Below, piece after piece: positions 23,744 to 46,117 of a DNA stretch of 64,000 bases. The position numbers and the translations under genes were made by a program. The stretch covers positions 64,001 to 128,000 of the forward strand of contig JBHLQH010000006.1 in the NCBI GenBank assembly GCA_048884965.1, written 5' to 3'. Below the pieces are notes generated by a model. It saw only the letters and a program-made list of their open reading frames with translations, did no database searches and was not told the origin of the DNA. Each line of letters opens with the position of its first letter. Within the stretch, counting starts at the first letter, position 1. Source of the DNA: Candidatus Thorarchaeota archaeon. Lineage in GTDB: Archaea > Asgardarchaeota > Thorarchaeia > Thorarchaeales > Thorarchaeaceae.

Positions 23744-24967
23744 TTATTCATAGATTTCTTCGAGACCATCCCATTCGAAACCCATTGCTTGAGCTACTAA
23801 TACGACCAAGTCCTTGGATAACTTGTTTGACCCTGCACCAGGTAATTGATTGTGCATGAAGTCGACACAAGAGGGACAATGTGACGCTACAACATTCGCA
23901 TTCGTAGCCTCGATGTCCTTGACCTTCAGATCGTTGATCTTAACGGCAAAGTCATTGTCTATTGCTCGGAGAACACCGCCTGAACCACAGCAATAGCTGT
24001 TTCCCTTGTTGTGAGGCAACTCCTCAAATACAACTCCAGGTAGATGTTCGAGAACCTTTCTAGGCTCCTCATAGAAGCCTGCGTTTCGACCTGCATCACA
24101 ACCATCATGATAGGTGACTGTCAAACCAAGGGGAGTGGTGAATTCCAACTTGTTGGCATCAAGGAGTTCCAACAGATACTCGGCACCATATACGATATCA
24201 AAGTCGTGCTCGATACCTAGGAACTCATGATACTCATGTGCCCACATCTTGTAGCATCCGGGGCAATTGGTAACAATCCTCTCAACGCCAAGTTCCTTGT
24301 ATTTCTCGATATTGTGAAGCGCGAATTTCCTTGCTGTTTCAAAATCTCCAGTCATGATCATCGGAGCACCGCAGCACCATTCTTCTTCACCAAGTAGAGT
24401 GAAGTCGACTCCTGCTTTGTCATAGATGAGAGTAGATGCTATTGTTCCCTGTATTGATACACCTTTGAAGGAGGAAGCACAGCCCATGAACAATGCTGTC
24501 TTTGCCTCTTTTCCCTGTAGGTCAAGTACCATGTCCTCGTCAGGGTGCCAGTATGACCAACCCTCAATCCTATCCATCTGAGATTGGCCCTGAATATTGT
24601 TAGTCTTCAGGAGAGTGTCCTTTGCCATCTGCAGCTCCTCTGGCCACATTCCTCTCTTTAGGAAATCATGACGCAGAAGCTGGTAGATCTTGACAAATGG
24701 GATGTCTACTTGACAGATCTCCTCACAACCTCCACATAGAGTACAACCAAAGATGGCGTCCCTGAGACCTTCTAGTCCTTGAGATGGTTTGAGTCGTCCC
24801 TGGATTAGATTCCTGGCAATGACCATCTTGCCCTTGCCAGAGTAACTATCACGCCGCTTGACCTTGTATGTCGGACAAGCTCCATTGCCTACTTGGCAGA
24901 AACTGCATTGAGCGCATGTATAAGGGATATCATGGAGTCCATGTGCTTCGAGTGTTGGGAATCGCAT
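23744..24967 (-). CDS. HdrD/GlpC-like Fe-S protein (2x[4Fe-4S] plus two CCG domains), paralog 1
   Basis: CAQCSFC...CP, CTLCGGCEEIC; CCG1 GC..WCCG..NCPGC; CCG2 HDGC..YCCG..HCPSC. Confidence 0.92.
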   Translation of the reverse strand: MRFPTLEAHGLHDIPYTCAQCSFCQVGNGACPTYKVKRRDSYSGKGKMVIARNLIQGRLKPSQGLEGLRDAIFGCTLCGGCEEICQVDIPFVKIYQLLRHDFLKRGMWPEELQMAKDTLLKTNNIQGQSQMDRIEGWSYWHPDEDMVLDLQGKEAKTALFMGCASSFKGVSIQGTIASTLIYDKAGVDFTLLGEEEWCCGAPMIMTGDFETARKFALHNIEKYKELGVERIVTNCPGCYKMWAHEYHEFLGIEHDFDIVYGAEYLLELLDANKLEFTTPLGLTVTYHDGCDAGRNAGFYEEPRKVLEHLPGVVFEELPHNKGNSYCCGSGGVLRAIDNDFAVKINDLKVKDIEATNANVVASHCPSCVDFMHNQLPGAGSNKLSKDLVVLVAQAMGFEWDGLEEIYE

Positions 24968-25194: not shown

Positions 25195-27135
25195 ATGGGA
25201 CTTAAGAAACGACAAATCGAGAAGCTTGCGGAACTCTTCGGAGATCGGCTCATTACTGAGAAGCACGAGTTAGTCATATTCAACACTGATGTTGGCGCCT
25301 TGCCAAAGCAAGTAGGATATATGATGAACAACAAACCTGATGCGGCAGTACAACCATTGACTCCGGAGGAGATTCAAGCTCTCTACGAAATTGCCAATAA
25401 AGAGAAGATACCTCTCGTTCCACGAGGAGCTGGGACAAGTGGGTATGGTGGTGCCATTCCACGAAAAGGTGGAATCATTGTAGACATTCGCAGGATGAAC
25501 AACATCATCGAGGTGGACAAGGAGAACCTGTCTGTTCTGGTAGAACCTGGACTCTCGTGGTCCAACCTACAGTTCGAGTTGAACCGTCAAGACTTGGATC
25601 TGCGATGCTATCCCTCATCAGGATTGGCTGCAACGATTGGAGGTTGGGTCGCTCAGGGTGGCGATGGTATTGGGTCTCTAAAGTATGGCAACATCAATGA
25701 GAATGTCCTTGAGTTTGAGGTCGTCCTACCAGATGGCAAGATAATCAAGAGTCGCGATACAGATCTCTTCTGTGACACTGAGGGAATACTGGGAATTATC
25801 ACCAAGGTCCGTTTGAAGATCAAGCCCCTTATGCCGCTAAAGGTCATCGTAGCAAGCTTCCCTGAGAACTACCAGATGGTTCTCGCAATGGAGAAGATGC
25901 TTGAGGATGGCCCATTACCTTATACTATCAAGTTTGAAGAATCAAAGTACACAGATCTCAAGAAGAAGGTCTGGGATGCTGATGAGCCCTTCCCGTTCCC
26001 CGTGCACCATGGAACAGTCATGGTCGCATACGAGGGAACAGATGAGGAGATTGAGGAAGGATTCGAGGTAGTTCGACATGTGACTGCAGAGTACAATGGT
26101 GTCGTCTACGATGAGCACGTAGCAGCGCACGAATGGCATGATCGATTCTATCCTATGCGTGTAAAGAAGGCTGGTCCTACCCTAGTTGTCGGACAGGCAT
26201 TCGCACCCCTTGAGAACCTTGAGGCTATTCTCTCTGATTTCCAGTTCGAGCAAGCCTCTGCCCAAGCGGGTATCGATGGATATGTGACCTCAAGATCAGG
26301 GGTAACTATCATGGGCTACTTCCTTGAAGACGAACGCAGAATGTTCTTCATGCTCTCCTGGTCACAAAGCTTTGTCATATTCAAGATCGCTCAACGACAT
26401 GGCGGACATCCCCACGGAATAGGGATCTGGTTCGCCAACTATGCGCCACAATACTTTGGCACACGACGACTGGCAAAGATTAGGGCTGCCAAGCTTCAGT
26501 ATGATAAGAATGAGATCTCGAATCCTGGGAAGATATTCGCATACTGGCTTCCCTTCATTCTTCGTATTGGCAAGTATTTCATGTGGATCGGTTATGACCT
26601 CTTCCGGAATGGATGGGGACGAATCGCTCCAGTGCTTTTGAAATGGCTACAGAATGTACCTCCTCTGAAGTGGATGCTCCGCTGGGGTCGTGGCCATAGT
26701 CCATGGCCTGTACAGTTCGGTCTTGGATGTTGTATGATGGACGGTGCGGCAGCTGTTGCCTCACGTTGGGACATTGAACGATTTGGAATGCTTCCACTCT
26801 TCGGTCCACGTCAGGCTGATGTGCTGTGGGTATCAGGGTCTCTGACCAAGAAGATGGCTCCACGACTTCGCAGAATCTATGAGCAGATGCCTGAGCCCAA
26901 GTATGTCATTAGCTTCGGTCAATGCGCCGCAAGTGGTGGCATGTTCTGGGATGGCTATTCTCTGATGACCCCGCCAGACAAGGTAGTGCCCGTTGATGTG
27001 TATCTGCCCGGTTGCCCACCAAAACCTGTAGATTTCGTACGAGCGCATTTGATATTACAAAACAAGATTCGCGCCGGTACAACGCACTGGCAGAGGAAGT
27101 ACGAGAATCAAGATGCAATGGGGATGATGCAATGA
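25195..27135 (+). CDS. nuoB: Fusion of a VAO/PCMH-type FAD-binding oxidoreductase (GlcD/D-LDH-like fold) with complex I subunit NuoB
   Basis: Residues 1-450: PRGAGTSGYGGA, VEPG, YPSS..ATIGGW, TEGILGIIT, NPGK. Residues ~497-630: SPWPVQFGLGCC, RWDIERFG, PRQADV, YEQMPEPKYVISFGQCAASGG, VDVYLPGCPP. One uninterrupted ORF. Confidence 0.92.
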   Translation: MGLKKRQIEKLAELFGDRLITEKHELVIFNTDVGALPKQVGYMMNNKPDAAVQPLTPEEIQALYEIANKEKIPLVPRGAGTSGYGGAIPRKGGIIVDIRRMNNIIEVDKENLSVLVEPGLSWSNLQFELNRQDLDLRCYPSSGLAATIGGWVAQGGDGIGSLKYGNINENVLEFEVVLPDGKIIKSRDTDLFCDTEGILGIITKVRLKIKPLMPLKVIVASFPENYQMVLAMEKMLEDGPLPYTIKFEESKYTDLKKKVWDADEPFPFPVHHGTVMVAYEGTDEEIEEGFEVVRHVTAEYNGVVYDEHVAAHEWHDRFYPMRVKKAGPTLVVGQAFAPLENLEAILSDFQFEQASAQAGIDGYVTSRSGVTIMGYFLEDERRMFFMLSWSQSFVIFKIAQRHGGHPHGIGIWFANYAPQYFGTRRLAKIRAAKLQYDKNEISNPGKIFAYWLPFILRIGKYFMWIGYDLFRNGWGRIAPVLLKWLQNVPPLKWMLRWGRGHSPWPVQFGLGCCMMDGAAAVASRWDIERFGMLPLFGPRQADVLWVSGSLTKKMAPRLRRIYEQMPEPKYVISFGQCAASGGMFWDGYSLMTPPDKVVPVDVYLPGCPPKPVDFVRAHLILQNKIRAGTTHWQRKYENQDAMGMMQ

Positions 27136-33035: not shown

Positions 33036-34589
33036 ATGCAGGTGATATTCGAAATCCCATTCATGGCTATTTCGCTAGCCGTGTTGTTCATTGGTGGACT
33101 TCTCATCTACCTCTTGAAAGGTAGACTTGAGAAGAGTGCTGGAAAGATTGCCGTAATCTTCTCTGGTATTGCTGTGGCGTTGATGATTCCACCATTCTAT
33201 CGTGTGATGTTCGAAGAGCATGCATACAACATCGCTGAAGAGACCCTGCACTGGTCGAATATCTTGGGTGCGTTCGGTCTTCGTTTGGATGGGATAGCCT
33301 TTCCAATAACCTTCGCAGTGGTTGTGCTTGGGTTCCTGTCTGTTGTCTATGCCGTAGGATACACCTCCCACGAGCACAACAAGCCAACCTTCTTTGCGAA
33401 TCAGTTGTTCTTCCTTATGGGAATGCAATGGGTAACTCTCGCAACGAACCTTATCGAGTTCTTCATTGCGTGGGAGCTCATGTTGGTTCCTTCATACTTC
33501 CTGATCCTGTTCTGGGGCCTACCCGAGACCCGCAAACGAACTGCGCTTAAGTTCTGGCTATACACTCAGAGCGGTGCAGTCTGTATCCTCATTGGATTTG
33601 GCCTGCTTTACTTCCTAAGTGGAGCGACCTCCTTCGAGCTCGCAGTTATTCAGGGTATGATCGCTTCATACCTTGGAGCTTCAGATCTATTGAAGATCAT
33701 CTTCATTCTGTTGGCAGCTGGATTCTTGGTCAAGATGGCAGTCTTCCCGATTCACTGGTGGCTTCCACCCGTTCATGCTGAAGCACCTACGCCAATCTCA
33801 GTGCTCCTATCAGGTGCAATGATCGAGACCGGTGCCTATGCTCTCGTCCGATTTGGGACTATTACGCTTGGTCCTGCGGCTGCGGATCTTTCAGTCTATG
33901 TAGCGGCTATCGGAGTCATCACCATGTTCTATGGTGGCTTCATGGCGCTAGTGCAGAAGGATATCAAGCGGCTCCTTGCCTACTCATCTGTAAGCCAGAT
34001 GGGCTATGTGCTCTTTGCCCTTGGAGTATTCTCCGTCTATGGAGTATCAGGAGGTCTCTTCCATCTGATCAACCATGCATTCTCCAAGGGACTACTGTTT
34101 ATGGCCGCAGGGACCGTGATGCATCAAACAGGCATACGAAACATCGACAAGTTAGGCGGTCTTTCAAACAAGATGCCTATCACTGCTTTCATGGCTGCCA
34201 TAGGTGCTATGAGTATCGCAGGTAGTCCTCCACTCTCGGGATTCGCGAGTGAATGGATGATGTTCCTTGGTGGATTCCAAGCCGCATCGCCGCCTGGTAC
34301 GGGACTCATCGTGCAACCAACGATGCTCATCCTTTCGATACTTGCTGTTTCAAGCTCAATAATGAGTGCTGGCTATATGTTACGATTCCTGTGGAAGGTC
34401 TTCCTAGGACCAAATCCACAAGACCTCGAAGAGGTACAAGAAGGGCCAAGGTCCATGACAATTCCAATGATTATCCTTGGATTCCTCATCGTGTTCTTCG
34501 GAATCTTCCCTGGCCTAGCGTTAGATATCATCGTGCCCGCAGTGGACGCAATTCCGAACATCATACCCTTCGAATTCCATGCTCCATGA
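33036..34589 (+). CDS. nuoM: Additional NuoM-like antiporter-like subunit (M')
   Basis: LRLDGI, FFIAWELMLVPSYFLI, KMAVFPIHWWLP-VHAEAPTP-SVLLSG, DIKRLLAYSSVSQMG, SGFASE. No NuoL-type C-terminal arm. Confidence 0.82.
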   Translation: MQVIFEIPFMAISLAVLFIGGLLIYLLKGRLEKSAGKIAVIFSGIAVALMIPPFYRVMFEEHAYNIAEETLHWSNILGAFGLRLDGIAFPITFAVVVLGFLSVVYAVGYTSHEHNKPTFFANQLFFLMGMQWVTLATNLIEFFIAWELMLVPSYFLILFWGLPETRKRTALKFWLYTQSGAVCILIGFGLLYFLSGATSFELAVIQGMIASYLGASDLLKIIFILLAAGFLVKMAVFPIHWWLPPVHAEAPTPISVLLSGAMIETGAYALVRFGTITLGPAAADLSVYVAAIGVITMFYGGFMALVQKDIKRLLAYSSVSQMGYVLFALGVFSVYGVSGGLFHLINHAFSKGLLFMAAGTVMHQTGIRNIDKLGGLSNKMPITAFMAAIGAMSIAGSPPLSGFASEWMMFLGGFQAASPPGTGLIVQPTMLILSILAVSSSIMSAGYMLRFLWKVFLGPNPQDLEEVQEGPRSMTIPMIILGFLIVFFGIFPGLALDIIVPAVDAIPNIIPFEFHAP

Positions 34590-34600
34590 GGTGATCAAAG

Positions 34601-36904
34601 ATGCTATTCGGTTTACCCTACTATCTAATCCTCGTAATCCCCTTAGCAGGTTCATTGTTGGTTCCAGTCATTGGCAAGTTCAATGAGAAACTCAGAGACT
34701 GGACCCCAGCCATCTTCATGGGCATAGCAATGATCCTGAGCTGGTCACTTCTCACAGAGGTCAACAATCCGACTACTGCTACTTCGTGGGTTTGGATTGA
34801 CTATCTTGGACTGAACTTCGAGGTACTGCTTGATCCACTTTCGGTCATTATGGCTGTGCTTGCGAGCACATTGTGTTTCCTCATCTATGTCTACTCAACA
34901 GAGTACATGGCTCATGAGGGTGACCGTGATAGGTTCTTCTTCCTCATGCTTGCATTCGGTGGTGGCATGCTCACTCTCGTGCTGAGCAACAACCTGCTGA
35001 TAGCGTTCATTGGGTGGGAGATTATGGGCTTCTGTTCCTATGGCTTGATTGGCTTCTGGAATGACAAACGCAACGCTCCTGAGGTCGAGCCTGACCCAAT
35101 CGTGTACAAGAACCCTCTCCTCCAATTCGAGACCGAGGGGCAGTACAACACGCACTCCGGTACCAAGGCGTTCATCGTCACTCGTATCGGTGATGCATTC
35201 ATGTTGGGTGGAATACTCCTCCTCTTCGCGTTCACTGGTACCTTCTCATTCTCTGAGATGGCTGCTGATGCACAGGGCTGGTGGGCCACAATGGCAGGAA
35301 TTGGAATGCTCGTTCCAACCTTCTTGCTTATCTTCATGGGCGCTATCGGAAAGTCTGGACAGGCGCCTTTACAGGTGTGGTTACCGGAGGCCATGGCAGG
35401 TCCGACGTCGGTGTCCGCCCTCATCCACGCTGCAACAATGGTAAAGGCTGGTATCTACATAACAGCTAGATTCCTCCTGACAATGGTCGCAGCTGCTGAA
35501 GAATCCGGAGGTGAAGCTCCCGAACATCTATTCGCTGCCCTTCAACTTCCCGGTGTAGAGGCTATCACATTATTCTTCATCATAGTAGCAGTGATTGGTG
35601 CAATCACGGCTCTCATGACAGCTACAATGGGTCTTGTTTCTAATGAGCTAAAGCAGATTCTTGCATTTTCAACCCTGAGTCAGCTAGGATACATGATGCT
35701 TGGACTTGGCACGGCGGGTCTGATTTACTTCTATGGACACCACTTTGAGGAAGCATTCTTATCTAGCGTTCTGCATGTAATCTCCCATGGGGCCTTCAAG
35801 GCACTTCTCTTCTTGGCTTCAGGTGGCGTCATCCATGCTGTGCATACCAAGTATGTCACAAAGATGGGTGGACTTGGCAAGTACATGAAGAAGACTTTGG
35901 TGGTCATGTGGATTGGTGTTCTTGCTCTGGCTGGTATTTGGCCTCTCTCTGGTTTTTGGTCAAAGGATGGTATAATCGAATGGGCATACGATCTTATGAT
36001 TGTTGAATCCGAGATGCTTGCACATGGAACCACCCTATTCCCTGTAGGTTGGATTGTGTTTCTCTTCGCAATTCTTGCTGCTGCATGTACGATTTTCTAC
36101 AGCATTAGGATGATGGGTTTGACATTCTATGGCCCAAGCGAATACGACAAAGAGGGACATGATTCAACTCATTCATCGGGACATGATTCATCATATCCAG
36201 AGGAAATCGATACTCTACGCGAGGACGATGAATCAAATGAACACCATGCTGACGATCATCATGCAACACCACATGATCCAGGTCTCGCCATGATGATTCC
36301 ACTGTATATCCTAGCGACGTTCACGATAGTGGCAATGTTTGTTTATCCCTTCATTGAGAACATAATATTGGGAACGGAACATGGGTTTACATATTTCGCA
36401 GTCGATGTTTTCTTGTATAAGATAACTGTTGGTTATGTACCCTTTTGGATAACTATTGGAGCACTACTACTAGGTGGAATTCCAGGTTTTCTATGGTACA
36501 TCAAAGGAGCTGATAGTCCTAATACCTTCGTGCCCGAAACCGGTATCCGCAGGAAGATCTACAACTTCCTCCGTCATCGCTGGTACATCAACGAGTTCTA
36601 CTATTGGGTGCTCAACAAGTTCCTGAACTTTGCTGAATGGTGGAGAGTAAGGATTGACAACAACATCATCGATGGTATCGACTTCAAGTCTGCTGACACT
36701 GCGAAGGGCATCTCCAGACGTGTGCGCTGGTTCGATGATCACATCGTAGACGGTTTCGCAGAAGGTGTTTCTACCTATAGTGTTGGAGCATCAGAATCTG
36801 GACAGGCGATACAATCAGGACGAATCAATGACTATGTATCAGTGATCATCTTCGGATTTGGCTTGATGATTCTTGTGATACTCATAACCTTGGGGGTGAT
36901 CTAA
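34601..36904 (+). CDS. nuoL: Complex I-like subunit L with insertions and an extended transverse helix
   Basis: LDPLS, GWEIMG-CSY-LIGFW, KAFIVTRIGD, GKSGQ-PL-VWLPEAMAGPT-VSALIHAATMV, GFWSKD, QSGRINDY. Confidence 0.95.
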   Translation: MLFGLPYYLILVIPLAGSLLVPVIGKFNEKLRDWTPAIFMGIAMILSWSLLTEVNNPTTATSWVWIDYLGLNFEVLLDPLSVIMAVLASTLCFLIYVYSTEYMAHEGDRDRFFFLMLAFGGGMLTLVLSNNLLIAFIGWEIMGFCSYGLIGFWNDKRNAPEVEPDPIVYKNPLLQFETEGQYNTHSGTKAFIVTRIGDAFMLGGILLLFAFTGTFSFSEMAADAQGWWATMAGIGMLVPTFLLIFMGAIGKSGQAPLQVWLPEAMAGPTSVSALIHAATMVKAGIYITARFLLTMVAAAEESGGEAPEHLFAALQLPGVEAITLFFIIVAVIGAITALMTATMGLVSNELKQILAFSTLSQLGYMMLGLGTAGLIYFYGHHFEEAFLSSVLHVISHGAFKALLFLASGGVIHAVHTKYVTKMGGLGKYMKKTLVVMWIGVLALAGIWPLSGFWSKDGIIEWAYDLMIVESEMLAHGTTLFPVGWIVFLFAILAAACTIFYSIRMMGLTFYGPSEYDKEGHDSTHSSGHDSSYPEEIDTLREDDESNEHHADDHHATPHDPGLAMMIPLYILATFTIVAMFVYPFIENIILGTEHGFTYFAVDVFLYKITVGYVPFWITIGALLLGGIPGFLWYIKGADSPNTFVPETGIRRKIYNFLRHRWYINEFYYWVLNKFLNFAEWWRVRIDNNIIDGIDFKSADTAKGISRRVRWFDDHIVDGFAEGVSTYSVGASESGQAIQSGRINDYVSVIIFGFGLMILVILITLGVI

Positions 36905-36905
36905 G

Positions 36906-38462
36906 ATGCAAGTAGACATCGCACAAGCAATCGCATCCATCCTGCCACTAGGTATCTTGCCATTCATGCTGTTCCTACCATTACTTGCAGCATTCGTAGT
37001 ACTCATCCTAGGCGCAAAGCCTGCGAGAATGATCACTCTATTGATCGCACTTGCAGAGATGGGTCTCGCGATAGTACTCGGTCTTGCAATTGATCCCGCA
37101 GTACAACTTGATGATCCCACTGGTGGAGTATTCGGTTGGCAATATACCATTGCCCCACTGACGACTGCTGAGGACGCTCCGCTTCTTCAGATCCTTCTTG
37201 GAGTGGACGGTCTCTCGGTGGTTATGATTATCCTGTCGAACCTTGTCGTGCTCATCGCTGCTATCAGCTCAAATCACATCAAGGAGTCCAAGTCAATGTA
37301 CTACTCCTTCTTCCTGATGCTTCAGTCAGGTCTCCTAGGAGTGTTCATGTCTATTGACCTCTTTAGCTTCTTTGTATTCTGGGAGCTTGTGCTAATTCCG
37401 ATGTTCTTCATCATCGGGAAGTGGGGCGAGGAAGGTGCACAGCACGCAGCCGTCAAGTTCGTCATCTACACACATCTTGGCTCAGCTGTTATGGCGATAT
37501 CGTTCTTTGTCCTGTTCTTCATGGCACCTACGCCGACCTTCAATATGGTAGAACTAAGAGGTATGGGACTCTCACCGGACATCCAGATTGGATTCGCGCT
37601 TGCAGTATTCATGGGTGCAGGTGTGAAGCTTCCTGTCTTCCCCTTGCACAACTGGCTACCGTGGGCGCATGTGAAGGCACCAACACCCGGCTCAGTCATC
37701 TTGGCGGGTATCCTTCTAAAGATGGGTGGCTATGCTTTCATAAGGCTAGGTCTCTGGATGGTTCCTGAAGGCTTTGCCAGATTGAGTATTCCGCTCGCAT
37801 TGCTAGCAGTCTTCACATGTATCTACGCAGCGTTCACTGCTATGGCACAGACTGACATGAAGTCCATGGTGGCGTACACATCCATCAATCACATGGCATG
37901 GGTGTTGCTTGGTGTTGCGGTCGCATCTGTTGGTATCAACAGTGCTGACCCAGTATTGCAGGGAGCTGCAAACATTGCCATTCAAGGGTCGATCTTCATG
38001 ATGTTCTCTCATGGTACTATCATCTCTGTAATGTTTATCATGGCCGGGCAGCTCAAATACGCTGCTGGTACACGTGAGATTCCGAACATCCGGGGTCTGC
38101 TCTCACGAGCACCAAAGATGGCTTCAGTCTTTATTCTCGCATCATTGGCTGCATTTGGACTGCCAGGATTCAGTGGGTTTATCGCTGAAGCGTTGACTCT
38201 GTTCGGTGCAGTGACAATCTACATCTGGGCTGGCCTCATCGGCTTCGGCATCTTTGTCACAGTTGGCTATCTTCTTTGGACGCTCAACAGGATGGTCTTC
38301 AGTGATCCTGACCCCGATAAAGAGATTAACGAGGCTCCATGGAGTGACCTCATCGCTCCTATCCTGATGATGATACCAGTCATACTGCTTGGTATCTGGC
38401 CTGATTTGATCTTAGACTTCACGAGAAGTGTTGTCCTCTTCATGCTAGGAGGTGCTCCCTAG
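36906..38462 (+). CDS. nuoM: Complex I-like subunit M
   Basis: [68 protein letters not shown]. Confidence 0.94.
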   Translation: [518 protein letters not shown]

Positions 38463-39962
38463 ATGCTACAAGCAAATGCTATTCTTGATTTCATCGAAAT
38501 ACTATTGACTCCATTGAGGGACATCCTTGTACAGCTTCCAGCTGAGTGGTATGGTTCCTTACCTGTCCTGACATTGATTGGATTCTCCATAATTGTGTTG
38601 ATCATTGGACTCAGATTCAATCCATTGATCATAAGCATCATTGGAGTCATTGTAGCAATGCTTGAAGTAGCCGCAATGGACCCTCTTGTCTATGGGTCTT
38701 CATTCGGAGGCCTCTTCGTTAGAGATGCCTTCGCTGACTTCTTCATCTATCTAATCCTGATAGTTGCGATCCTGGTGATGCTATCTGCAACTCAGTATGG
38801 TGGTGATAAGGGTCCTTACAACTTCCTATTCCTCATCTCCTTTGCTGGAGCGATCTGGGTTGTCATGGCTACTGACCTCATCGCTTTGTTCTTGGCATGG
38901 GAACTGATGAGCACACCAACCTACATACTTGTAGCTCTAGGACCTGACAGACTTGCACTTGATGGCGCGACCAAGTATTTTGTCATGGGCTTGGTTTCAA
39001 CCATGTTCATGCTCTTTGGTATCGCACTCGTCTTTGGCGTGTGCGGCACTACAGTTCTGACTGAGGTGGGTGTACATGTAGCAGCGATTTGGGCTGCTCC
39101 TGCGACATTAACCACGCAGGCATATACACTCCTCTTGTCCATGGTCCTCTTCATCATCGCCTTCGGATTCAAGGTAGGTATCTTCCCAGGTTGGATGTGG
39201 GTACCTGATACCTATGCTACAGCTGATGGGAGCGTGACCGCATATCTGGCTGGTGCGACAAAGAAGACTGGAGTTAGTGCATTAGCCCGAATACTGATGG
39301 TTGGTTTCATCGTTGCTCGATTGGAGTGGTACTGGCTCATCATCATTGTTGCCATGCTTACGATGGTGATAGGGAACTTCCTTGCATTAGCACAGAAGGA
39401 TATCATGAGAATGCTTGCCTTTTCGAGTATTGCTATGATGGGCTATGTATTCGTAGGGTTTGCCGTTGACACAGCTATAGGACTATCATCAGCCTTCTTC
39501 CTAGCATTCGTTCATGCTATCATGAAAGCAGGAGCATTCATCCTCATCTTTGCGATGTCCATTCGTTTGCAAAAGAGGATTACCTATGAAGAACTAAATG
39601 GGCTTAGTCAACGATATCCAATTGCTGCAGGGTTCCTTGGGATCATCGTCATCTCGTTGATGGGTATACCCTTCACTGCAGGATTCACACCGAAGTTCCT
39701 GCTATTCCTCAGCACTGCAGAGGTAGGCCTATGGTGGCTTGGACTGTTTGCTTTCCTGAATGTGACATTCTCACTTGGCTACTACTTCCGAGTTATACGA
39801 GCGATGTATCTCAGGCCAGCTAGTGATACCAGCACCTTCACTTTGCCTAAGATCCCAATGATCATTGGTGGAGTGTGTGCACTCTCAATGCTTGTACTAT
39901 TTTGGTTCCCAGGACCTATCATAGAGCTAGCGAATGCAGCTGCCGCTCTACTAGTACCATAG
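38463..39962 (+). CDS. nuoN: Complex I-like subunit N
   Basis: DLIALFLAWELMS-P-YIL, KYFVMG, GFKVG-FP--MWVPDTY, RMLAFSSI, GIPFTAGF-PKF, YYFRVI. Confidence 0.93.
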   Translation: MLQANAILDFIEILLTPLRDILVQLPAEWYGSLPVLTLIGFSIIVLIIGLRFNPLIISIIGVIVAMLEVAAMDPLVYGSSFGGLFVRDAFADFFIYLILIVAILVMLSATQYGGDKGPYNFLFLISFAGAIWVVMATDLIALFLAWELMSTPTYILVALGPDRLALDGATKYFVMGLVSTMFMLFGIALVFGVCGTTVLTEVGVHVAAIWAAPATLTTQAYTLLLSMVLFIIAFGFKVGIFPGWMWVPDTYATADGSVTAYLAGATKKTGVSALARILMVGFIVARLEWYWLIIIVAMLTMVIGNFLALAQKDIMRMLAFSSIAMMGYVFVGFAVDTAIGLSSAFFLAFVHAIMKAGAFILIFAMSIRLQKRITYEELNGLSQRYPIAAGFLGIIVISLMGIPFTAGFTPKFLLFLSTAEVGLWWLGLFAFLNVTFSLGYYFRVIRAMYLRPASDTSTFTLPKIPMIIGGVCALSMLVLFWFPGPIIELANAAAALLVP

Positions 39963-40274: not shown

Positions 40275-41666
40275 ATGGTATACTATACTGATTCGCCAAG
40301 AATGAACAAGCGGATGGTGTCAGGTTATTACCTGTTCCTCTGTTTGATTGGTTTCGCCGTTCTTCTAGGACCAACCGGTGCCGGCATTACGATAAATATT
40401 ATCGGAAATGGCGGACGTGATCAGCACGAGATTTCGAGTCCTATGGCAGGAGATGACCCAAGTGACTGTTCAGGCTGTCACTCAAATGAGTACAATAACT
40501 GGAGTACAACTCCTCATGCTACTCATGTGACTGTGGTAAACTCCACACACTATGCGATAGGTTCTCGCAATGTTTCCATGACTCTCTTTAACAGCAGCTG
40601 TGCAGCGTGTCACACATCTGGATACAATGCATCAGCTCCTGCAAGTGAACGGTTTGATGCGTTGGGTGTGAACTGCTTTGCATGTCACAACACAACAGCT
40701 CCATACGTGGACTATAGTGGTGAAGCGTGTGCTCCCTGTCATACAGGAAGCAATCCCGCTCATCCCTACCAGTATGCACCGTGGGAGAACTCAGCTCATG
40801 CGAACTCTCTGACTGACCTCAGAACAAGTAGCCACGCAGGCTCCTCATGTATGCACTGCATGTCAACAGAAGGCTTCATTGACCAAGACGCTGATTTAGA
40901 CGTCGAAGGTGAATACAATGCAGTTTCCTGTCCAGCATGTCACTCCGTGCATGGTGAGTGGTCCGGCGATGGTCCATACATGATCAGAGCCGAAAATGCA
41001 AGCGAACTATGTGGTAACTGCCACACTGGTTCAAGGCATGGCTCATATGATACCTGGATTGGTGGTTCACACAATCTTGCAGGTCTCACATGTATTGACT
41101 GTCACGGCTATGATCTGACAAACACCTCTGACACAGACACTTACTTCTTGAATCATACATTTGTCGTTAAGCCAGATCTTGCATGTGGCCAACCCGACAA
41201 TGGATGTCACGAAGACAATCTTGAGTGGGCTCTAGCACAGCTTGAGACAATTCAGGATGCTTTCGATGCTCTTGTCGAGGAGATTCAGACAGAAGCAGAT
41301 GATCTAGAAGAAATCATTCTAGCTTACAATGCTACTGAGGGTGCTGATTACGAACTAGTAGGTGAGGTAATGGATGTCATTGACGATGTCAGTGGTGTAA
41401 TTACCGCAATGAATGGAGACGGTTCATCAGGATTCCATGATCGTGTTGGTATCTTGGATACACTAAATGGAGCGTATCTTGACCTACTGAATGCCAAGGC
41501 CTACTTCTACGAGAACACACCAGCTGAAACTGTAACTGTCACAGTTACTGAAACCGTAACAGTTCCAGCTCCAAGCGGTATGGACACTCTCGTTCTTGCA
41601 GGTGGTGCAGTTGGCGGTATCGTCATCGGTTTGATCCTAGGACTGCTAGTCGGAAGACGACGCTAA
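40275..41666 (+). CDS. Membrane-anchored extracytoplasmic multiheme cytochrome c (7 CxxCH, 1 CX6CH, 1 CxxCM)
   Basis: Signal/TM segment; CSGCH, CAACH, CFACH, CAPCH, CMHCM, CPACH, CGNCH, CIDCH, CGQPDNGCH; acidic helical region, TV-rich stalk, C-terminal TM ending RRR. Confidence 0.92.
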   Translation: MVYYTDSPRMNKRMVSGYYLFLCLIGFAVLLGPTGAGITINIIGNGGRDQHEISSPMAGDDPSDCSGCHSNEYNNWSTTPHATHVTVVNSTHYAIGSRNVSMTLFNSSCAACHTSGYNASAPASERFDALGVNCFACHNTTAPYVDYSGEACAPCHTGSNPAHPYQYAPWENSAHANSLTDLRTSSHAGSSCMHCMSTEGFIDQDADLDVEGEYNAVSCPACHSVHGEWSGDGPYMIRAENASELCGNCHTGSRHGSYDTWIGGSHNLAGLTCIDCHGYDLTNTSDTDTYFLNHTFVVKPDLACGQPDNGCHEDNLEWALAQLETIQDAFDALVEEIQTEADDLEEIILAYNATEGADYELVGEVMDVIDDVSGVITAMNGDGSSGFHDRVGILDTLNGAYLDLLNAKAYFYENTPAETVTVTVTETVTVPAPSGMDTLVLAGGAVGGIVIGLILGLLVGRRR

Positions 41667-41698
41667 AGGCGATAAACTGGAGAAACTAATGTAAAGGC

Positions 41699-41730
41699 GG
41701 GATGTCTAACATCCCTCCGTATCTTTTTTT
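41699..41730 (+). terminator. Hairpin plus T7 tract after the multiheme cytochrome gene
   Basis: GGGATGT-cta-ACATCCC followed by TTTTTTT. Confidence 0.6.
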
Positions 41731-41839
41731 CTCCCAAAGAGTTCTCCAGTGAATATTGGGTTCTGTCCTATGGGCTTCTATTAGTTTCCGGAATTTTTTA
41801 CCGATATTATATGAACCCGAGAAAGGTGATCTTTCCATA

Positions 41840-44035
41840 ATGATAAGTAAACGAACAATAATTGCATTGACTATATTTACACTAATGTTGGGGACTTTTT
41901 GTCCTCCCTTAGAATATAAGCAAACGAACAAAACTTCAATGTATCCACAAAGCAATTTCACCACATCTGAAGAGTACAACATAAGCAGCTATATTGATTT
42001 CTCGACCGCAGCTCTCAACATCATTTTAGATGTTCTGATTAGATGGGATGATGGTAGCGTGTTTCACTCAGGTGATTACAAGTGGGAAATGATCGACTAC
42101 GCTCCAAGCTTAGCAGATTTTTATTGGACTATCTCCGCGCTTTCAAGAATGTACTGGGTTTCTGTTGAGGAAGGATCTGCAAATGATACGATTTCCATTC
42201 TTGTTAGTCGTATAGCTACAAAAATGGTCTTCTTGCTTCTAGATCCTGACTATCCTGGTTTTGGTGTCAATACATACTCTGTACTAGAGGCCCGTACATC
42301 AAAGCGACCCGGAGTTCAAGCATATGCATATGAAGCCCTGAGGCTTGCTGAGGCTGTAAATAGTACTTTGGATTTCTCAGCTGAGCAACAGAGTGCAATT
42401 ACATGTCTTACGGATATGCTCTATGATGAAGTGAACGGTGGGTTCTACTTCTTCACTCTGCAGAATGGTTCTATCAACGTACCCCCAGAGTTTGATGAAG
42501 TGTATCCCAACGATGGGAAACGACTTGACCATCTTGCTCTTGGGGCATTGGCATTGTATGACGCTTCAGTTGAAACATCGAACACTACACTACTAAATAT
42601 GGCGGACGAAGCAATCTCTTTCATGATGAAGCACATGAAGCAGACAATCCAAACTGACTATTTTGGATTGAAATTGGCCGTCACTGCCAATGGCAGTGAA
42701 GTAATCGTGAATGAAGGTGAACGACCCGCTAATGTGGTTGTATCAGATATTAATGCGATTGCTCTTGGTGCATTACTAAAGGCATATACAACCACTGGCA
42801 ACTCAACGTATCTAGATTTTGCTAAGGAAACCTTCAATGCCCTACTACAGAAAAATTGGGATACAGTACATGGAGGTTGGTTTGCAGAAACTCTGAATGG
42901 AGAGCCTTTCGATCCTCTTGATGACGAGGACGTGAAGTTCTACAAATATACAGAAATCCAGTTTCAGATGACCCGATTCTTATCCGACCTTTATGAGTTG
43001 ACCGATAACACATTCTACGTTAGACTCGTGATTGATACCCTCGAGCTCGTCATCTCTCATCTATGGGATAAGTCACATGGAGGTTTTGTTCAGAATGGGA
43101 ATCAGGAATGGGACGTTTTTAGTGATGAGTGGGAAATACATTACACCTCAGTTCAATGTCAAGCCATTTTAAGTCTGGAAAAGCTTTGGTCCTATGGTCT
43201 TCCGATAATATCCTATGTCAGAATCAATCCTTCTTCTCCTAGACCATTTGATGAGATTCTCATAACTGCACTTGTCCAAGATCCCGATGGTATTGATGAT
43301 GTATATGTCAATTACACCATTTCTTTTGGTTCAGTCACGACTTCAGGGATATTGGAGCTGGATCCAAATCCTGAAGCTGGCGGAGTTTTCAATAGTACAC
43401 TTGGATATCTCAATGACACGACACAGGTCAATTTCTATGTATATGCGAATGATACGACGGGTGCATCCTTTGTAGCGGGATCGTACTATTTCATTGTACG
43501 TGAGGATATATGGGAACCCGCTATTGTGTTGAGACAAATCTATCCAGAGGAGGTAGCTGCAGGTGACGAAGTAATTCTTGAGTTCGGCACCTATGAGTTC
43601 CCATTACATAGTGCTTTGTTATATTGTACACTCTTCTGGAAGGTGAATAATGGCGCATTCACAGAATTGAATATGACCCACGTTGGGTTTGAAGAGGATT
43701 ACCTTGTATGGATAGCTAACCTCGGTCGGTTTCGACCTGGTGATGTAATATCATATTACTGTATAGCGCTTGATGAATCAGGAAATATAGGTATTAGTGC
43801 ATACTACAGACTAACAATCAATAATCCTGCTTCGTATATTTCCCCTATAACCTCATGGCAATTCTTTGCAATAGTAGGATCTCTATCACTTCCAGGATTC
43901 GGTTTTGCATATGTTTGGACTCGTAGAAAGCACTCGAATGAACAACAGAGAATTTTGAAGAAGGAAGCTCGGAAACGTGGTAGGCGTGCTAGGGGGAAAA
44001 GCAGATCTCGATCGAGGTCACAAGGAGGCGAATAA
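41840..44035 (+). CDS. Large secreted, C-terminally anchored protein (alpha/alpha-barrel-like repeats plus Ig-like domains)
   Basis: Start moved to ATG 41840 (SD AGGTGA). Repeated helix-turn motifs LYDEVNGGFY / NWDTVHGGWF / LWDKSHGGFV, as in AGE/GH76/YyaL-type barrels; two beta-sandwich segments; TM and Arg-rich tail; abuts ccmF (TAA-ATG). Confidence 0.6.
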   Translation: MISKRTIIALTIFTLMLGTFCPPLEYKQTNKTSMYPQSNFTTSEEYNISSYIDFSTAALNIILDVLIRWDDGSVFHSGDYKWEMIDYAPSLADFYWTISALSRMYWVSVEEGSANDTISILVSRIATKMVFLLLDPDYPGFGVNTYSVLEARTSKRPGVQAYAYEALRLAEAVNSTLDFSAEQQSAITCLTDMLYDEVNGGFYFFTLQNGSINVPPEFDEVYPNDGKRLDHLALGALALYDASVETSNTTLLNMADEAISFMMKHMKQTIQTDYFGLKLAVTANGSEVIVNEGERPANVVVSDINAIALGALLKAYTTTGNSTYLDFAKETFNALLQKNWDTVHGGWFAETLNGEPFDPLDDEDVKFYKYTEIQFQMTRFLSDLYELTDNTFYVRLVIDTLELVISHLWDKSHGGFVQNGNQEWDVFSDEWEIHYTSVQCQAILSLEKLWSYGLPIISYVRINPSSPRPFDEILITALVQDPDGIDDVYVNYTISFGSVTTSGILELDPNPEAGGVFNSTLGYLNDTTQVNFYVYANDTTGASFVAGSYYFIVREDIWEPAIVLRQIYPEEVAAGDEVILEFGTYEFPLHSALLYCTLFWKVNNGAFTELNMTHVGFEEDYLVWIANLGRFRPGDVISYYCIALDESGNIGISAYYRLTINNPASYISPITSWQFFAIVGSLSLPGFGFAYVWTRRKHSNEQQRILKKEARKRGRRARGKSRSRSRSQGGE

Positions 44036-46117
44036 ATGGATATAGGAACAATTCTATTAATCGTCACAGTCATTATTGGACTGGTTGATGTCTTTGTATT
44101 ACTTGTGGGCCCTCGACTGAGGGACTATGAAAGCATATCATATGGAATGAGCATCGTTGGATGGCTTACTTCCGTAGGCGCAGTATTGTGGATGCTAGTA
44201 CTTCTCTATACGAACCAGTTTCAATATGAGTATGTATGGCAGGTCACATCCAGTGATTCTGATTTCTTCTTGAAGCTCTCTGGGCTTTGGGCTGGGCAAT
44301 CAGGTTCACTAATATTCTGGACATTCTTGTCTTTCACGTTGTACTTCTTCTACCGAGTTGTTACGAATGGATATGAAGACGATGTGATTGTCTATAGGGC
44401 ATCAATCCTTATGGTCATTCAAGCTGTGCTTATCGCGATAAACACCATCTTATCTGATCCATTCAGATTGATACCAGGCAATCCTCCTACAGAAGGTCTT
44501 GGACTGAATCCACTTCTACGTACCTTTTGGAACGTCATTCATCCTCCTTTGGTCTTTATTGCTTATGCGCTAATACTCGTGCCTTTTGCAATCAAGCTAG
44601 CTGGATACACTGTGCGTTCTGAAGATAGGAATACGGATCAAATTCCAGTGCTCCAATCAATTTCGAGTTACCTGACATTGCTGTCTTGGATCTTTCTATC
44701 AATCGGGATTGTCATTGGTGGATACTGGGCTTACATAGTACTTGGTTGGGGTGGATACTGGGCGTGGGATCCTGTTGAAACCACTTCTCTTATTCCTTGG
44801 CTCCTCCTGACCGCCTATTACCATGCAAAACCGATTCTTCGAAAGAATGATGTCCTTCGGGATTCATTCCTTGTGTTTGCGTACATCTGTGTTCTATTTG
44901 CTACATGGGTCACTCGGAGCGGTGTGCTGAGCTCGGTACACGGATTTGAAATGACTATAGTCAGTTGGACTATGCTTGCAACAGTAGCTGGCAACTTCAT
45001 TATCGCCTCTCTGATCACGGTGTGGTCAGGCTATCGCGATATGGATGATGAAGAGGAACAACAGAATGAGGATGAAGGATTCTCGTTGAGACGTCTTGTC
45101 TATCCTTCAAATATGCGGAATCTCTCAATTCAAATAGCACTGGTAGGTATTCTTGTAATCACTGCTGTGTCTGTGATTGGAGTCCTATTGCCTGCGATAT
45201 TGAATCTACAAATCATATTATCGGGAGGTGTCTTAGATGAGATGCTCTCGATTGGACCTGAATTCTTTTGGCTTGGATTCTACGGAGGTTCCTTCTTCCT
45301 TTTGACATCCGCATTCTACTGCATGGATACCTCTCTGGTTACAACAAAAATCAGAAACATCCTTCTTCTTCTCTTGATTGCAGTCGGAGGAATCCTCGGA
45401 GTGGCGTCACTTCAATTAGGTCTTGCATTACCAACCAGCTTCTGGATTCCTAATCTCTTAGTACCTCTAGCTCTTGGTGCAGTCGCCTATATCATTGTAG
45501 TATTTGCTCGAACGATGGCAGGAAAGGAGAAAGGCGTTTTCACTATGCGAAAGATGGGTCGTGTGATGTTGCACCTTGGAATGGTCATGCTAGTACTTGG
45601 TGTTCTCATGAGTGAGAATGTTGTTTATGAATCCAATTATGGATTCATGGAGGATGACATGGCTCAAGTTGCTGATGGCATCTGGGTTCAAGTATCTGAG
45701 ATCAATATTCTATACTGGAATGGGCCGACGGATTTTGAGATTCGTGTAACTGTATCCGTGATAGAGGGGAATGCCTTAGTGGGTATTGGGATAACCTCGA
45801 TCAAGGGTTATCCGCAATGGGGATCTGTAGCGCATAATGTATATCTGCATTCGGGAATCCTTCGTGATGTATTCATTGCTGTGACAGGATTCTCTCAAGT
45901 GCTTCCTGGACAATATACTGTATCACTACACATCAAGGTACTACCTATCGTATCTTTCGTCTGGGGAGGTTCTTTCTTCATGGTCGCAGCGATGCTTCCC
46001 ATGGTAGGCATAGAGTTCTCTGGACTTAGGCGAGCCATGAAAGGAAAGGCACAAGATCTCTATGGCGATGATGAGCAGGTAGAGAATGATGAGATTGTAG
46101 ACGAACCAGTTAATTAA
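44036..46117 (+). CDS. ccmF: Cytochrome c heme lyase CcmF
   Basis: LWAGQSGSL, GLGLNPLL, IHPP, WGGYWAWDPVE, TRSGVL-SVHGF, HLG. Confidence 0.95.
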   Translation: MDIGTILLIVTVIIGLVDVFVLLVGPRLRDYESISYGMSIVGWLTSVGAVLWMLVLLYTNQFQYEYVWQVTSSDSDFFLKLSGLWAGQSGSLIFWTFLSFTLYFFYRVVTNGYEDDVIVYRASILMVIQAVLIAINTILSDPFRLIPGNPPTEGLGLNPLLRTFWNVIHPPLVFIAYALILVPFAIKLAGYTVRSEDRNTDQIPVLQSISSYLTLLSWIFLSIGIVIGGYWAYIVLGWGGYWAWDPVETTSLIPWLLLTAYYHAKPILRKNDVLRDSFLVFAYICVLFATWVTRSGVLSSVHGFEMTIVSWTMLATVAGNFIIASLITVWSGYRDMDDEEEQQNEDEGFSLRRLVYPSNMRNLSIQIALVGILVITAVSVIGVLLPAILNLQIILSGGVLDEMLSIGPEFFWLGFYGGSFFLLTSAFYCMDTSLVTTKIRNILLLLLIAVGGILGVASLQLGLALPTSFWIPNLLVPLALGAVAYIIVVFARTMAGKEKGVFTMRKMGRVMLHLGMVMLVLGVLMSENVVYESNYGFMEDDMAQVADGIWVQVSEINILYWNGPTDFEIRVTVSVIEGNALVGIGITSIKGYPQWGSVAHNVYLHSGILRDVFIAVTGFSQVLPGQYTVSLHIKVLPIVSFVWGGSFFMVAAMLPMVGIEFSGLRRAMKGKAQDLYGDDEQVENDEIVDEPVN

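What the first reader, a model, noticed from the sequence alone, without database searches (positions are those of the whole stretch)
36581..36820. NuoL transverse helix lengthened by a 26-residue internal repeat, matching a fourth antiporter subunit
Seen: the segment from WYINE to QSG is 80 aa and contains the motif twice, DNNIIDG (36656) and DDHIVDG (36734), exactly 26 codons apart; Q of QSG lies a further 26 codons on. Recalled: standard NuoL has one such motif and roughly 50-55 aa over this span, and 2M complexes carry an insertion of about this size to span the extra subunit. This independently suggests that M' is a real structural member of the arm and that the extension arose by tandem duplication.
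Basis: partly seen in the sequence, partly recalled or inferred. Interest (0 to 1): 0.82.

Follow-up and report, generated by a model that had tools for sequence, protein, structure and literature searches.

The report
Four-pump complex I, lengthened NuoL strap
In this Thor-type Asgard archaeon, the long side helix of subunit NuoL, which straps the ion-pump subunits of a complex I-like enzyme together, is one 26-residue module longer than usual, which fits the fourth pump gene in the operon; this "2M" design is already known, so this is a clear new example and not a new kind of machine.

Summary
NuoL (34601-36904, 767 aa) carries DNNIIDG (aa 686-692) and DDHIVDG (aa 712-718) exactly 26 residues apart. 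The span from the WYIN anchor to the QSG anchor is 81 aa, against 54-56 in NuoL of three-pump operons of the same phylum and 51-52 in E. coli.

AlphaFold2 predicts the extra piece as helix: 72 continuous helical residues, against 49 in a three-pump paralogue folded the same way.

A profile of the ordinary one-module helix matches all 45 distinct Thor orthologues twice and reuses about 26 profile positions. It never does so in ordinary NuoL. This supports a module duplication. The window sequence alone is not significant; the signal is old.

All 36 Thor-type loci with enough upstream DNA have the extra NuoM-type gene M' next to nuoL.

Caveats:
- In other lineages helix length does not always track the number of pump genes.
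- M' is not a recent copy of M (30% identity). M' is the Asgard-type NuoM, and M and N look bacterial-type.

The 26-residue insertion in 2M complex I is published. This scan has also reported the same feature on other Thor genomes and related ones. Verdict: real, correctly read, a new member of a known kind.

The parts
33036..34589 (+). nuoM' : extra NuoM-type antiporter-like subunit (517 aa), directly upstream of nuoL
   Evidence: PF00361, E 8.9e-70. It has the TM5 Glu, TM7 Lys and TM12 Glu of E. coli NuoM (E144, K234, E407), but Glu at K265 and Gln at H322. It groups with the NuoM of Asgard three-pump operons.
34601..36904 (+). nuoL (767 aa), distal antiporter-like subunit carrying the lateral helix HL and TM16
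   Evidence: PF00361 + PF00662. PDB phmmer: NdhF, Nqo12 and NuoL at E 1e-54 to 1e-73. AF2 model pLDDT 86.7. E. coli NuoL Z 44.9.
36545..36793 (+). lateral helix HL, aa 649-731 (helices 649-658 and 660-731)
   Evidence: DSSP on the AF2 model. pLDDT is 76-92 up to aa 720, then falls. The control three-pump NuoL L053 has 586-592 plus 597-645.
36578..36613 (+). N-terminal cap of HL with the conserved RWYIN anchor (aa 660-671)
   Evidence: Near-invariant in 87 aligned NuoLs. Used as the start of the span measure.
36614..36691 (+). HL module 1 (aa 672-697; register arbitrary), holds motif DNNIIDG at 36656-36676
   Evidence: Matched by HMM positions about 31-56 of the one-module profile. Aligns with the single motif of cyanobacterial NdhF1. 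Aligns with the E. coli D563-N566 kink, where HL touches NuoM (PMC3274701).
36692..36769 (+). HL module 2 (aa 698-723), holds motif DDHIVDG at 36734-36754; the piece that ordinary NuoL lacks
   Evidence: Second hit of the same HMM positions (i-Evalue 0.019 here; median 2.7e-4 over 45 orthologues). Aligns in register with the single FD..(I/V)DG motif, QxG and TM16 of chloroplast and cyanobacterial NdhF. MAFFT places the 26-27-aa gap of three-pump NuoLs here.
36770..36820 (+). C-terminal cap of HL ending in QSG (aa 724-740)
   Evidence: G740 is invariant in 87 NuoLs. The model gives a low-confidence coil at 732-741.
36824..36889 (+). TM16, the far anchor of the strap (aa 742-763)
   Evidence: Helix 742-763 in the AF2 model.
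36906..38462 (+). nuoM (518 aa), second NuoM-type subunit
   Evidence: PF00361. All six key residues match E. coli NuoM. Groups with E. coli and Chloroflexi NuoM, SH-aLRT 100.
38463..39962 (+). nuoN (499 aa)
   Evidence: PF00361. TM12 Lys as in NuoN. Groups with E. coli and Chloroflexi NuoN.

Best explanation
The window encodes a complex I-like enzyme of a Thorarchaeota-type Asgard archaeon. Its membrane arm has four antiporter-like subunits: N, M, M' and L. NuoL is the distal subunit. Its C-terminal lateral helix HL runs back along the cytoplasmic face of the neighbouring pump subunits and is pinned at the far end by TM16. It acts as a strap that holds the arm together.

In this lineage HL has two copies of a roughly 26-residue module where ordinary NuoL has one. 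That is about 23-26 more helical residues, or roughly 35-39 A, about the width of one antiporter-like subunit. TM16 can therefore still reach its docking place beyond the additional NuoM-type subunit.

Each module carries a D-x-x-(I/V)-(I/V)-D-G motif. This motif lies at the position where, in E. coli, the helix kinks and touches NuoM. Each of the two M-type subunits therefore probably gets its own contact. The second module most likely arose by an old duplication of the first, before Thor- and Heimdall-type operons of this kind diverged.

Shown here: the extra 26 aa, its predicted helicity, the double match to a one-module profile, and the strict co-occurrence with M' in this operon family.

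Inferred: that M' is assembled next to L (arm order N-M-M'-L), the motif-to-subunit contacts, and any extra ion pumped per cycle.
For: Span 81 aa against 54-56 (three-pump Asgard) and 51-52 (E. coli).

AF2: helix 660-731 with both motifs inside, TM16 at 742-763. Control L053: helix 597-645, TM16 at 650-670.

Duplication:
- Offset-26 peak in the orthologue profile, reached by 2 of 1000 shuffles.
- The one-module HMM hits 45 of 45 Thor C-termini twice and 0 of 16 ordinary ones twice. It hits three-module helices three times and skips about 25 positions in short helices.
- Plain tandem repeats in other lengthened helices: L063 z 5.7, L132 z 6.3, L067 z 11, L179 z 16.6, L183 z 31.

Co-occurrence:
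- M' is directly upstream in 36 of 36 loci, and M and N are downstream in 37 of 37.
- Only four PF00361 genes exist in this genome, all in this operon.
- Table of modules against pump genes, first sample of 58 rows: 3 rows at (0,2), 16 at (1,3) and 35 at (2,4).
- Operons with five pump genes have three modules.

M' and M are both NuoM-type, with the TM12 Glu.

Motif 1 corresponds to E. coli D563-N566, which is the HL-NuoM contact according to PMC3274701.

A 26-aa HL insertion is the published mark of 2M complexes (PMC9040806, PMC6606698).
Against: - No structure of the assembled arm was or could be predicted, so the place of M' and the contacts are inference.
- The window's own sequence shows no significant internal repeat (z 1.4).
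- Independent evolutionary contrasts are few: 3-4 for long against standard and 2 for short. All go in the expected direction, but they are too few for a test.
- Helix length and pump number disagree elsewhere in the phylum. L067 has 2 modules and 3 pump genes. L179 and genome G104 have 3 modules and only 3 PF00361 genes in a 96%-complete one-contig genome. The L051 type has 3 modules and 4 pump genes.
- 26 residues is 7.2 helical turns, so on a rigid straight helix the two motifs would face about 80 degrees apart. Known HLs are kinked, and the model cannot settle this.
- pLDDT falls below 60 from aa 721 to 741.
Confidence: 0.8

Rival explanations
1. The second module was not made by a tandem duplication in place. 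It was grafted by recombination with a second, bacterial-type nuoL, so that the distal end of HL and TM16 came in together with the bacterial-type M and N. The two motifs would then be copies from two genes.
For: The operon looks chimeric. The M' and NuoL cores group with Asgard three-pump subunits. M and N group with E. coli and Chloroflexi NuoM and NuoN at SH-aLRT 100. Module 2, QSG and TM16 align in register with the bacterial or plastid-type FD..(I/V)DG..G motif. Five residues after the QxG glycine stands Tyr, as in E. coli, NdhF and L067. Asgard three-pump NuoLs have Asn there. Module 1 resembles the Asgard-type motif more.
Against: In the sister-type operon L063 the repeat similarity extends over 39 residues at offset 26 and runs across the module borders, as expected of duplication in place. 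Plain duplications in place are frequent in this helix in other lineages. Bacterial sampling in the trees is thin (E. coli, Chloroflexi, L067), the trees are quick searches, and the root is unknown. The segments are too short for a tree of their own.
Confidence: 0.2
2. The extra module has nothing to do with M'. It is a surplus or differently used stretch of helix, as in lineages that have long helices but only three pump genes. In that case M' may work elsewhere or not be part of this arm.
For: Long helices without extra pump genes exist in the same phylum (L067; L179 with G104, 3 PF00361 genes in a 96%-complete genome). They are also reported for Ca. Manganitrophaceae Complex_I_1 and _2 (PMC9040806).
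Against: In this operon family the two features never separate (36 of 36). M' is translationally packed between nuoI and nuoL: there is no gap before it and an 11-nt gap after it. It keeps the NuoM charge set except K265 and H322. The genome has no other PF00361 complex that M' could serve. Across the Asgard-type operons, 0, 1, 2 and 3 modules go with 2, 3, 4 and 5 pump genes.
Confidence: 0.1
3. The two motifs are convergent. An unrelated 26-aa insertion acquired a similar D..(I/V)(I/V)DG docking motif under selection.
For: The single-sequence similarity is confined to the 7-residue motif. There is no DNA repeat.
Against: The profile match of the second copy covers about 26 to 50 positions, not only the motif. 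It is significant in 40 of 45 orthologues (i-Evalue below 0.01). Related operons keep longer repeat similarity (L063).
Confidence: 0.05

Closest known systems
NuoL of '2M' complex I (Chadwick, Hemp, Fischer & Orphan 2018, ISME J 12:2668; read only through citing papers PMC9040806, PMC6606698, PMC7117926 and bioRxiv 10.1101/2021.05.03.442362)
   Same: A second NuoM-type subunit in the cassette, together with an insertion of about 26 aa in the amphipathic helix HL of NuoL. No nuoEFG in the cluster. The Chloroflexi 2M operons fetched here (order L-M-M-N) have spans of 83-84 aa.
   Different: The gene order is I-M'-L-M-N, with the extra gene upstream of nuoL. The NuoL core groups with Asgard NuoL and apart from Chloroflexi 2M NuoL (SH-aLRT 98), which points to an independent origin. 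The two M-type subunits have different ancestry. I found no held paper that names Thorarchaeota as a 2M lineage. I could not read the 2018 paper, so I cannot say whether its archaeal clade includes them or whether it noted a duplication.
E. coli NuoL / T. thermophilus Nqo12 (3RKO, 7Z7S, 4HE8)
   Same: Same fold (Z 44-45). Same layout of TM15, HL and TM16. HL works as a strap, not a piston (PMC3274701). Motif 1 lies at the E. coli D563-N566 kink that contacts NuoM.
   Different: One module more (81 aa against 51-52). Extra loops at aa 152-178 and aa 523-553.
MrpD2 of Complex_I_3 and NuoL of Complex_I_1/2 of Ca. Manganitrophaceae (Yu et al. 2022, PMC9040806)
   Same: A conserved 26-aa insertion in HL, read as room for an added pump subunit. 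A hybrid origin of the cassette was proposed there, as the trees suggest here.
   Different: That case is bacterial, and the strap-bearing subunit is MrpD-like. Some of those NuoLs carry the insertion without an extra pump.
Three-pump and two-pump complex I-like operons of Asgard archaea (short arms noted in bioRxiv 10.1101/2024.07.04.601786)
   Same: Same NuoL family and same anchors. The helix is built from the same module.
   Different: They have one module (54-56 aa, three pump genes) or none (28-29 aa, two pump genes).

Membership tests
NuoL / ND5 / Nqo12 (distal antiporter-like subunit of complex I) | Proton_antipo_M core with the Proton_antipo_N N-terminal domain | tested here: met
   PF00361 E 4e-55 and PF00662 E 4e-13. 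PDB NuoL, NdhF and Nqo12 at E 1e-54 to 1e-73.
NuoL / ND5 / Nqo12 (distal antiporter-like subunit of complex I) | C-terminal extension: TM15, long lateral helix, TM16 | tested here: met
   AF2 model: helices 612-635, 649-731 and 742-763. Structural match to E. coli, Thermus and Mycobacterium NuoL, Z 44-45.
2M complex I | Two NuoM-type subunits in one nuo cassette | tested here: met
   M' and M both carry Glu at the E. coli NuoM E407 position (NuoN has Lys there), and also the TM5 Glu and TM7 Lys. Both fall in the NuoM part of the subunit tree.
2M complex I | Insertion of about 26 aa in the NuoL lateral helix | tested here: met
   81 aa against 54-56 and 51-52. Predicted helical.
2M complex I | All four antiporter-like subunits assembled in one arm; higher ion/electron ratio | not testable with these tools
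   Only single chains could be folded. No biochemical data.
2M complex I | Membership in one of the published 2M clades | tested here: inconclusive
   The NuoL core is separate from Chloroflexi 2M NuoL. Other published clades (Nitrospira, ammonia-oxidising archaea) were not sampled, and the 2018 paper is not held.

The most novel reading that the evidence does not exclude
The NuoL strap is a modular ruler. It consists of an N-cap, n copies of a 25-28-residue docking module, a C-cap and TM16. Asgard archaea have repeatedly lengthened or shortened it by tandem duplication or deletion of one module as pump subunits were gained or lost. The series runs 0, 1, 2, 3 modules with 2, 3, 4, 5 pump genes. 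The window's enzyme is the 2-module, 4-pump step, and it was built as a chimera of an Asgard-type L-M pair and a bacterial-type M-N pair. If so, module number and motif type would predict the arm's subunit order.
Probability: 0.4. Interest if true: 0.65.

Novelty: new member of a known kind. Interest (0 to 1): 0.45.

Why it matters
This adds Thor-type Asgard archaea to the organisms that carry a four-pump complex I, and it does so through an origin separate from the bacterial (Chloroflexi) 2M enzymes sampled here. A four-pump arm would change the ion-to-electron ratio. That matters for energy budgets of Asgard archaea living near thermodynamic limits, or for running the enzyme in reverse.

The profile test gives a simple way to count strap modules. 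In this operon family the count agrees with the number of pump genes. The same survey also shows that the count is not a safe predictor on its own, because several lineages have surplus modules.

Tried and rejected
- A DNA-level repeat between the two modules was sought. Only trivial 10-12-nt matches turned up.
- The single-sequence repeat statistic for the window was not significant. I therefore relied on orthologue profiles.
- A PDB search with module 1 alone returned no NuoL, only a chance hit at E 1.1.
- A profile self-similarity test on Chloroflexi 2M helices and on ordinary one-module helices was not significant. I therefore dropped the idea that the ordinary helix already shows an internal repeat.
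- Independent-contrast tests of helix length against pump number gave too few contrasts.
- Chadwick et al. 2018 is not held, by DOI or by PMC id. It is known here only through citing papers.
The gene context of the 3- and 4-module proteins from the representative library could not be read, so I surveyed Asgard genomes instead.
- A strict rule 'modules = pump genes minus 2' was considered and rejected as universal, because of L067, L179/G104, the L051 type and L183.

Full report
**What is there.** The finding lies in the C-terminal part of a 767-aa ORF (34601-36904, + strand). The ORF belongs to a tightly packed operon: nuoA 28419, J 28861, K 29502, C 29815, D 30321, H 31454, I 32604, M' 33036, L 34601, M 36906, N 38463. 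Pfam names every product. M', L, M and N are all Proton_antipo_M proteins. They are the only four PF00361 genes in the 4.09-Mb genome. Close relatives found in public genomes are titled Candidatus Thorarchaeota or Promethearchaeota, so this is an Asgard archaeon.

**The observation.** Translation of 36581-36820 gives the segment exactly as described. DNNIIDG starts at aa 686, DDHIVDG at aa 712 and QSG at aa 738, with 26 codons between each.

I measured the span from the conserved RWYIN-type anchor to the QTG-type anchor just before TM16:
- 81 aa in the window.
- 81-82 aa in every Thor orthologue.
- 54-56 aa in NuoL of three-pump operons of the same phylum. This includes the second, ordinary complex that some Thor genomes also carry.
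- 51-52 aa in E. coli NuoL.

MAFFT places a 26-27-aa gap in the three-pump proteins opposite the second motif.

**Helix or loop.** I folded NuoL with AlphaFold2 on an 87-sequence alignment (pLDDT 86.7, pTM 0.84). The model has helices 649-658 and 660-731, with both motifs inside. A low-confidence linker follows at 732-741, then TM16 at 742-763. A three-pump NuoL from a Thor genome (L053) folded the same way has 597-645 and TM16 at 650-670. The main helix is therefore 72 residues against 49. The extension is predicted as helix, about 35-39 A at 1.5 A per residue. The model superposes on E. coli NuoL (7z7s_L, Z 44.9) over model residues 1-683 and chain residues 1-562.

**Duplication.**
- The window sequence alone is weak: offset 26 is the best self-match, but z is 1.4.
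- On a profile of 37 distinct orthologues, offset 26 scores 27.3 against a shuffled maximum of 14.9 +/- 3.0. Two of 1000 shuffles reach it.
- A stronger test uses an HMM of the ordinary helix plus TM16, built from 16 three-pump Asgard NuoLs (83 positions). It matches all 45 distinct Thor C-termini in two pieces, positions 1-56 and about 23-32 to 83. About 26 positions are therefore used twice. The median i-Evalue of the second piece is 2.7e-4.
- None of the 16 ordinary sequences gives two pieces. The L051 type gives three. Short helices skip about 25 positions.
- In the PDB search, the single motif of cyanobacterial NdhF1 aligned with copy 1. Those of chloroplast NdhF and Mycobacterium NuoL aligned with copy 2.
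- Other lengthened helices keep plain tandem repeats at offsets 25-27: L063 z 5.7, L132/L158 z 6-7, L067 z 11, L175 z 9, L179 z 16.6, L183 z 31.
- There is no DNA-level repeat in the window. The event is old.

**What the motif is.** By sequence and by structure, E. coli D563-P564-L565-N566 corresponds to window aa 685-688, the start of motif 1. Belevich et al. (PMC3274701) describe this as the kink where the helix contacts NuoM. Their mutagenesis argues for a stabilising strap and against a piston. A second copy 26 residues on would offer a like contact to a second M-type subunit. This step is inference.

**Co-occurrence.** Of 48 distinct Thor-type nuoL loci, 36 have at least 1.6 kb of upstream DNA, and all 36 have M' directly upstream. 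All 37 with enough downstream DNA have M and N. The same operon and the same span occur in a Heimdallarchaeota record (L128), in G025 (L063) and in G053 (L182).

In the first sample of 58 NuoLs the table of modules against pump genes was:
- (0,2) three times
- (1,3) sixteen times
- (2,4) thirty-five times
- (2,3) twice
- (3,4) once
- one locus with 2 modules and an unknown number of pump genes

On a NuoL tree built without the helix columns there are only 3-4 plus 2 independent contrasts. All go the expected way, but they are too few for a test.

A scan of 400 genomes of the phylum with the helix profile, followed by 40 fetched loci, added three things:
- More two-pump operons with 28-29-aa spans.
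- A family in which the four pump genes are dispersed and the span is 83 aa.
- Operons with five consecutive PF00361 genes and a 109-aa span (L162, L166-168, L172).

In a library of 1.84 billion representative proteins, the spans of the best 150 hits fall into classes near 29, 55, 82, 110 and 140 aa.

**Exceptions.**
- L067 has two modules and three pump genes.
- The L179 type has a 108-aa span of three plain repeats, but only L, M and N. Its relative G104, a 96%-complete genome in one contig, has only three PF00361 genes.
- The L051 type has three modules and four pump genes.
- L183 has a recent duplication and only two pump genes in the locus.

So the strap length is suggestive and not diagnostic. 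Yu et al. also noted this for Ca. Manganitrophaceae (PMC9040806).

**Ancestry.** M' and M are 30% identical. Both have the NuoM-specific Glu on TM12. In a tree of 74 M/N-type subunits, M' groups with the NuoM of Asgard three-pump operons. M groups with E. coli and Chloroflexi NuoM (SH-aLRT 100), and N with E. coli and Chloroflexi NuoN (100). The NuoL core groups with Asgard NuoL and apart from Chloroflexi 2M NuoL (98). The four-pump state here is therefore independent of the Chloroflexi one. It looks like a chimera and not like a fresh nuoM duplication. These are quick trees with thin bacterial sampling and no root. This leaves open a rival origin for module 2: recombination with a bacterial-type nuoL.

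**Comparison with what is known.** 2M complex I, with a second NuoM and a lengthened NuoL, was described by Chadwick et al. 2018. I could read that paper only through citing papers. They state the following:
- A 26-amino-acid insertion in HL (PMC9040806).
- The Chloroflexi order nuoL-M-M-N (PMC7117926).
- A duplicated M in ammonia-oxidising archaea and Angelarchaeales (bioRxiv 10.1101/2021.05.03.442362).

No held paper links Thorarchaeota to this design. A recent Asgard preprint discusses only shorter arms.

Earlier notes of this scan report the same feature in another Thor-type genome. They also report five-pump operons and surplus-module cases in other genomes. My tests here agree with them.

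**Verdict.** The feature is a new member of a known kind.

Noticed in passing
window 25195-27135 (+), 23744-24967 (-): There is no stand-alone nuoB. The only NuoB domain near the operon is the C-terminus (aa 513-617) of a 646-aa protein whose N-terminal part is a GlcD-like FAD oxidase (FAD_binding_4 + FAD-oxidase_C). An HdrD/GlcF-like protein (Fer4 + CCG) lies next to it on the other strand. Earlier notes of this scan have already followed this up.
   Followed up: partly
window 33036-34589 (M') versus 36906-39962 (M, N): The arm looks chimeric. M' and the NuoL core are Asgard-type, while M and N group with E. coli and Chloroflexi NuoM and NuoN (SH-aLRT 100). M' has Glu at the E. coli NuoM K265 position and Gln at H322, as do some Asgard three-pump NuoMs. 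M has the full E. coli pattern.
   Followed up: partly
window 36167-36259 (NuoL aa 523-553) and 35054-35134 (aa 152-178): NuoL has two extra loops relative to E. coli NuoL. One is a loop rich in His, Asp and Glu, with pLDDT below 50, before TM15. The other is a roughly 27-aa loop after TM5. Together with the helix module they explain the 767-aa length.
   Followed up: no
L166:957-9086, L167, L168, L162, L172 (genomes G140, G139, G137, G141, G336): These Asgard operons have five consecutive PF00361 genes (order K-M'-M'-L-M-N) and a 109-aa, three-module NuoL helix. Pfam was confirmed for L166. In the held literature five pump subunits are reported only for Ca. Manganitrophaceae (PMC9040806). Earlier notes of this scan report the same.
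   Followed up: partly
L179:2691-4955 (G115) and genome G104: This NuoL has a 108-aa helix span made of three plain 26-aa repeats (z 16.6), but the operon is H-I-J-K-L-M-N. A 96%-complete relative in one contig has only three PF00361 genes. What lies under the surplus modules is unknown.
   Followed up: partly
L183:4150-6234 (G215): A very recent, almost exact 25-aa tandem duplication in the NuoL helix (z 31), in a locus with only two antiporter-like genes.
   Followed up: no
L067:5742-6563 (-), between nuoL and nuoM of G039: A 273-aa gene on the opposite strand, rich in Lys and Glu, interrupts a bacterial-type nuo operon. Its NuoL has a clear 27-aa duplicated module, but only three pump genes are found.
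   Followed up: no
window 40275-46117: Downstream of nuoN lie a multihaem cytochrome c (c554/NrfB-like Pfam hits) and a CcsA/ResC-like cytochrome c assembly protein.
   Followed up: no
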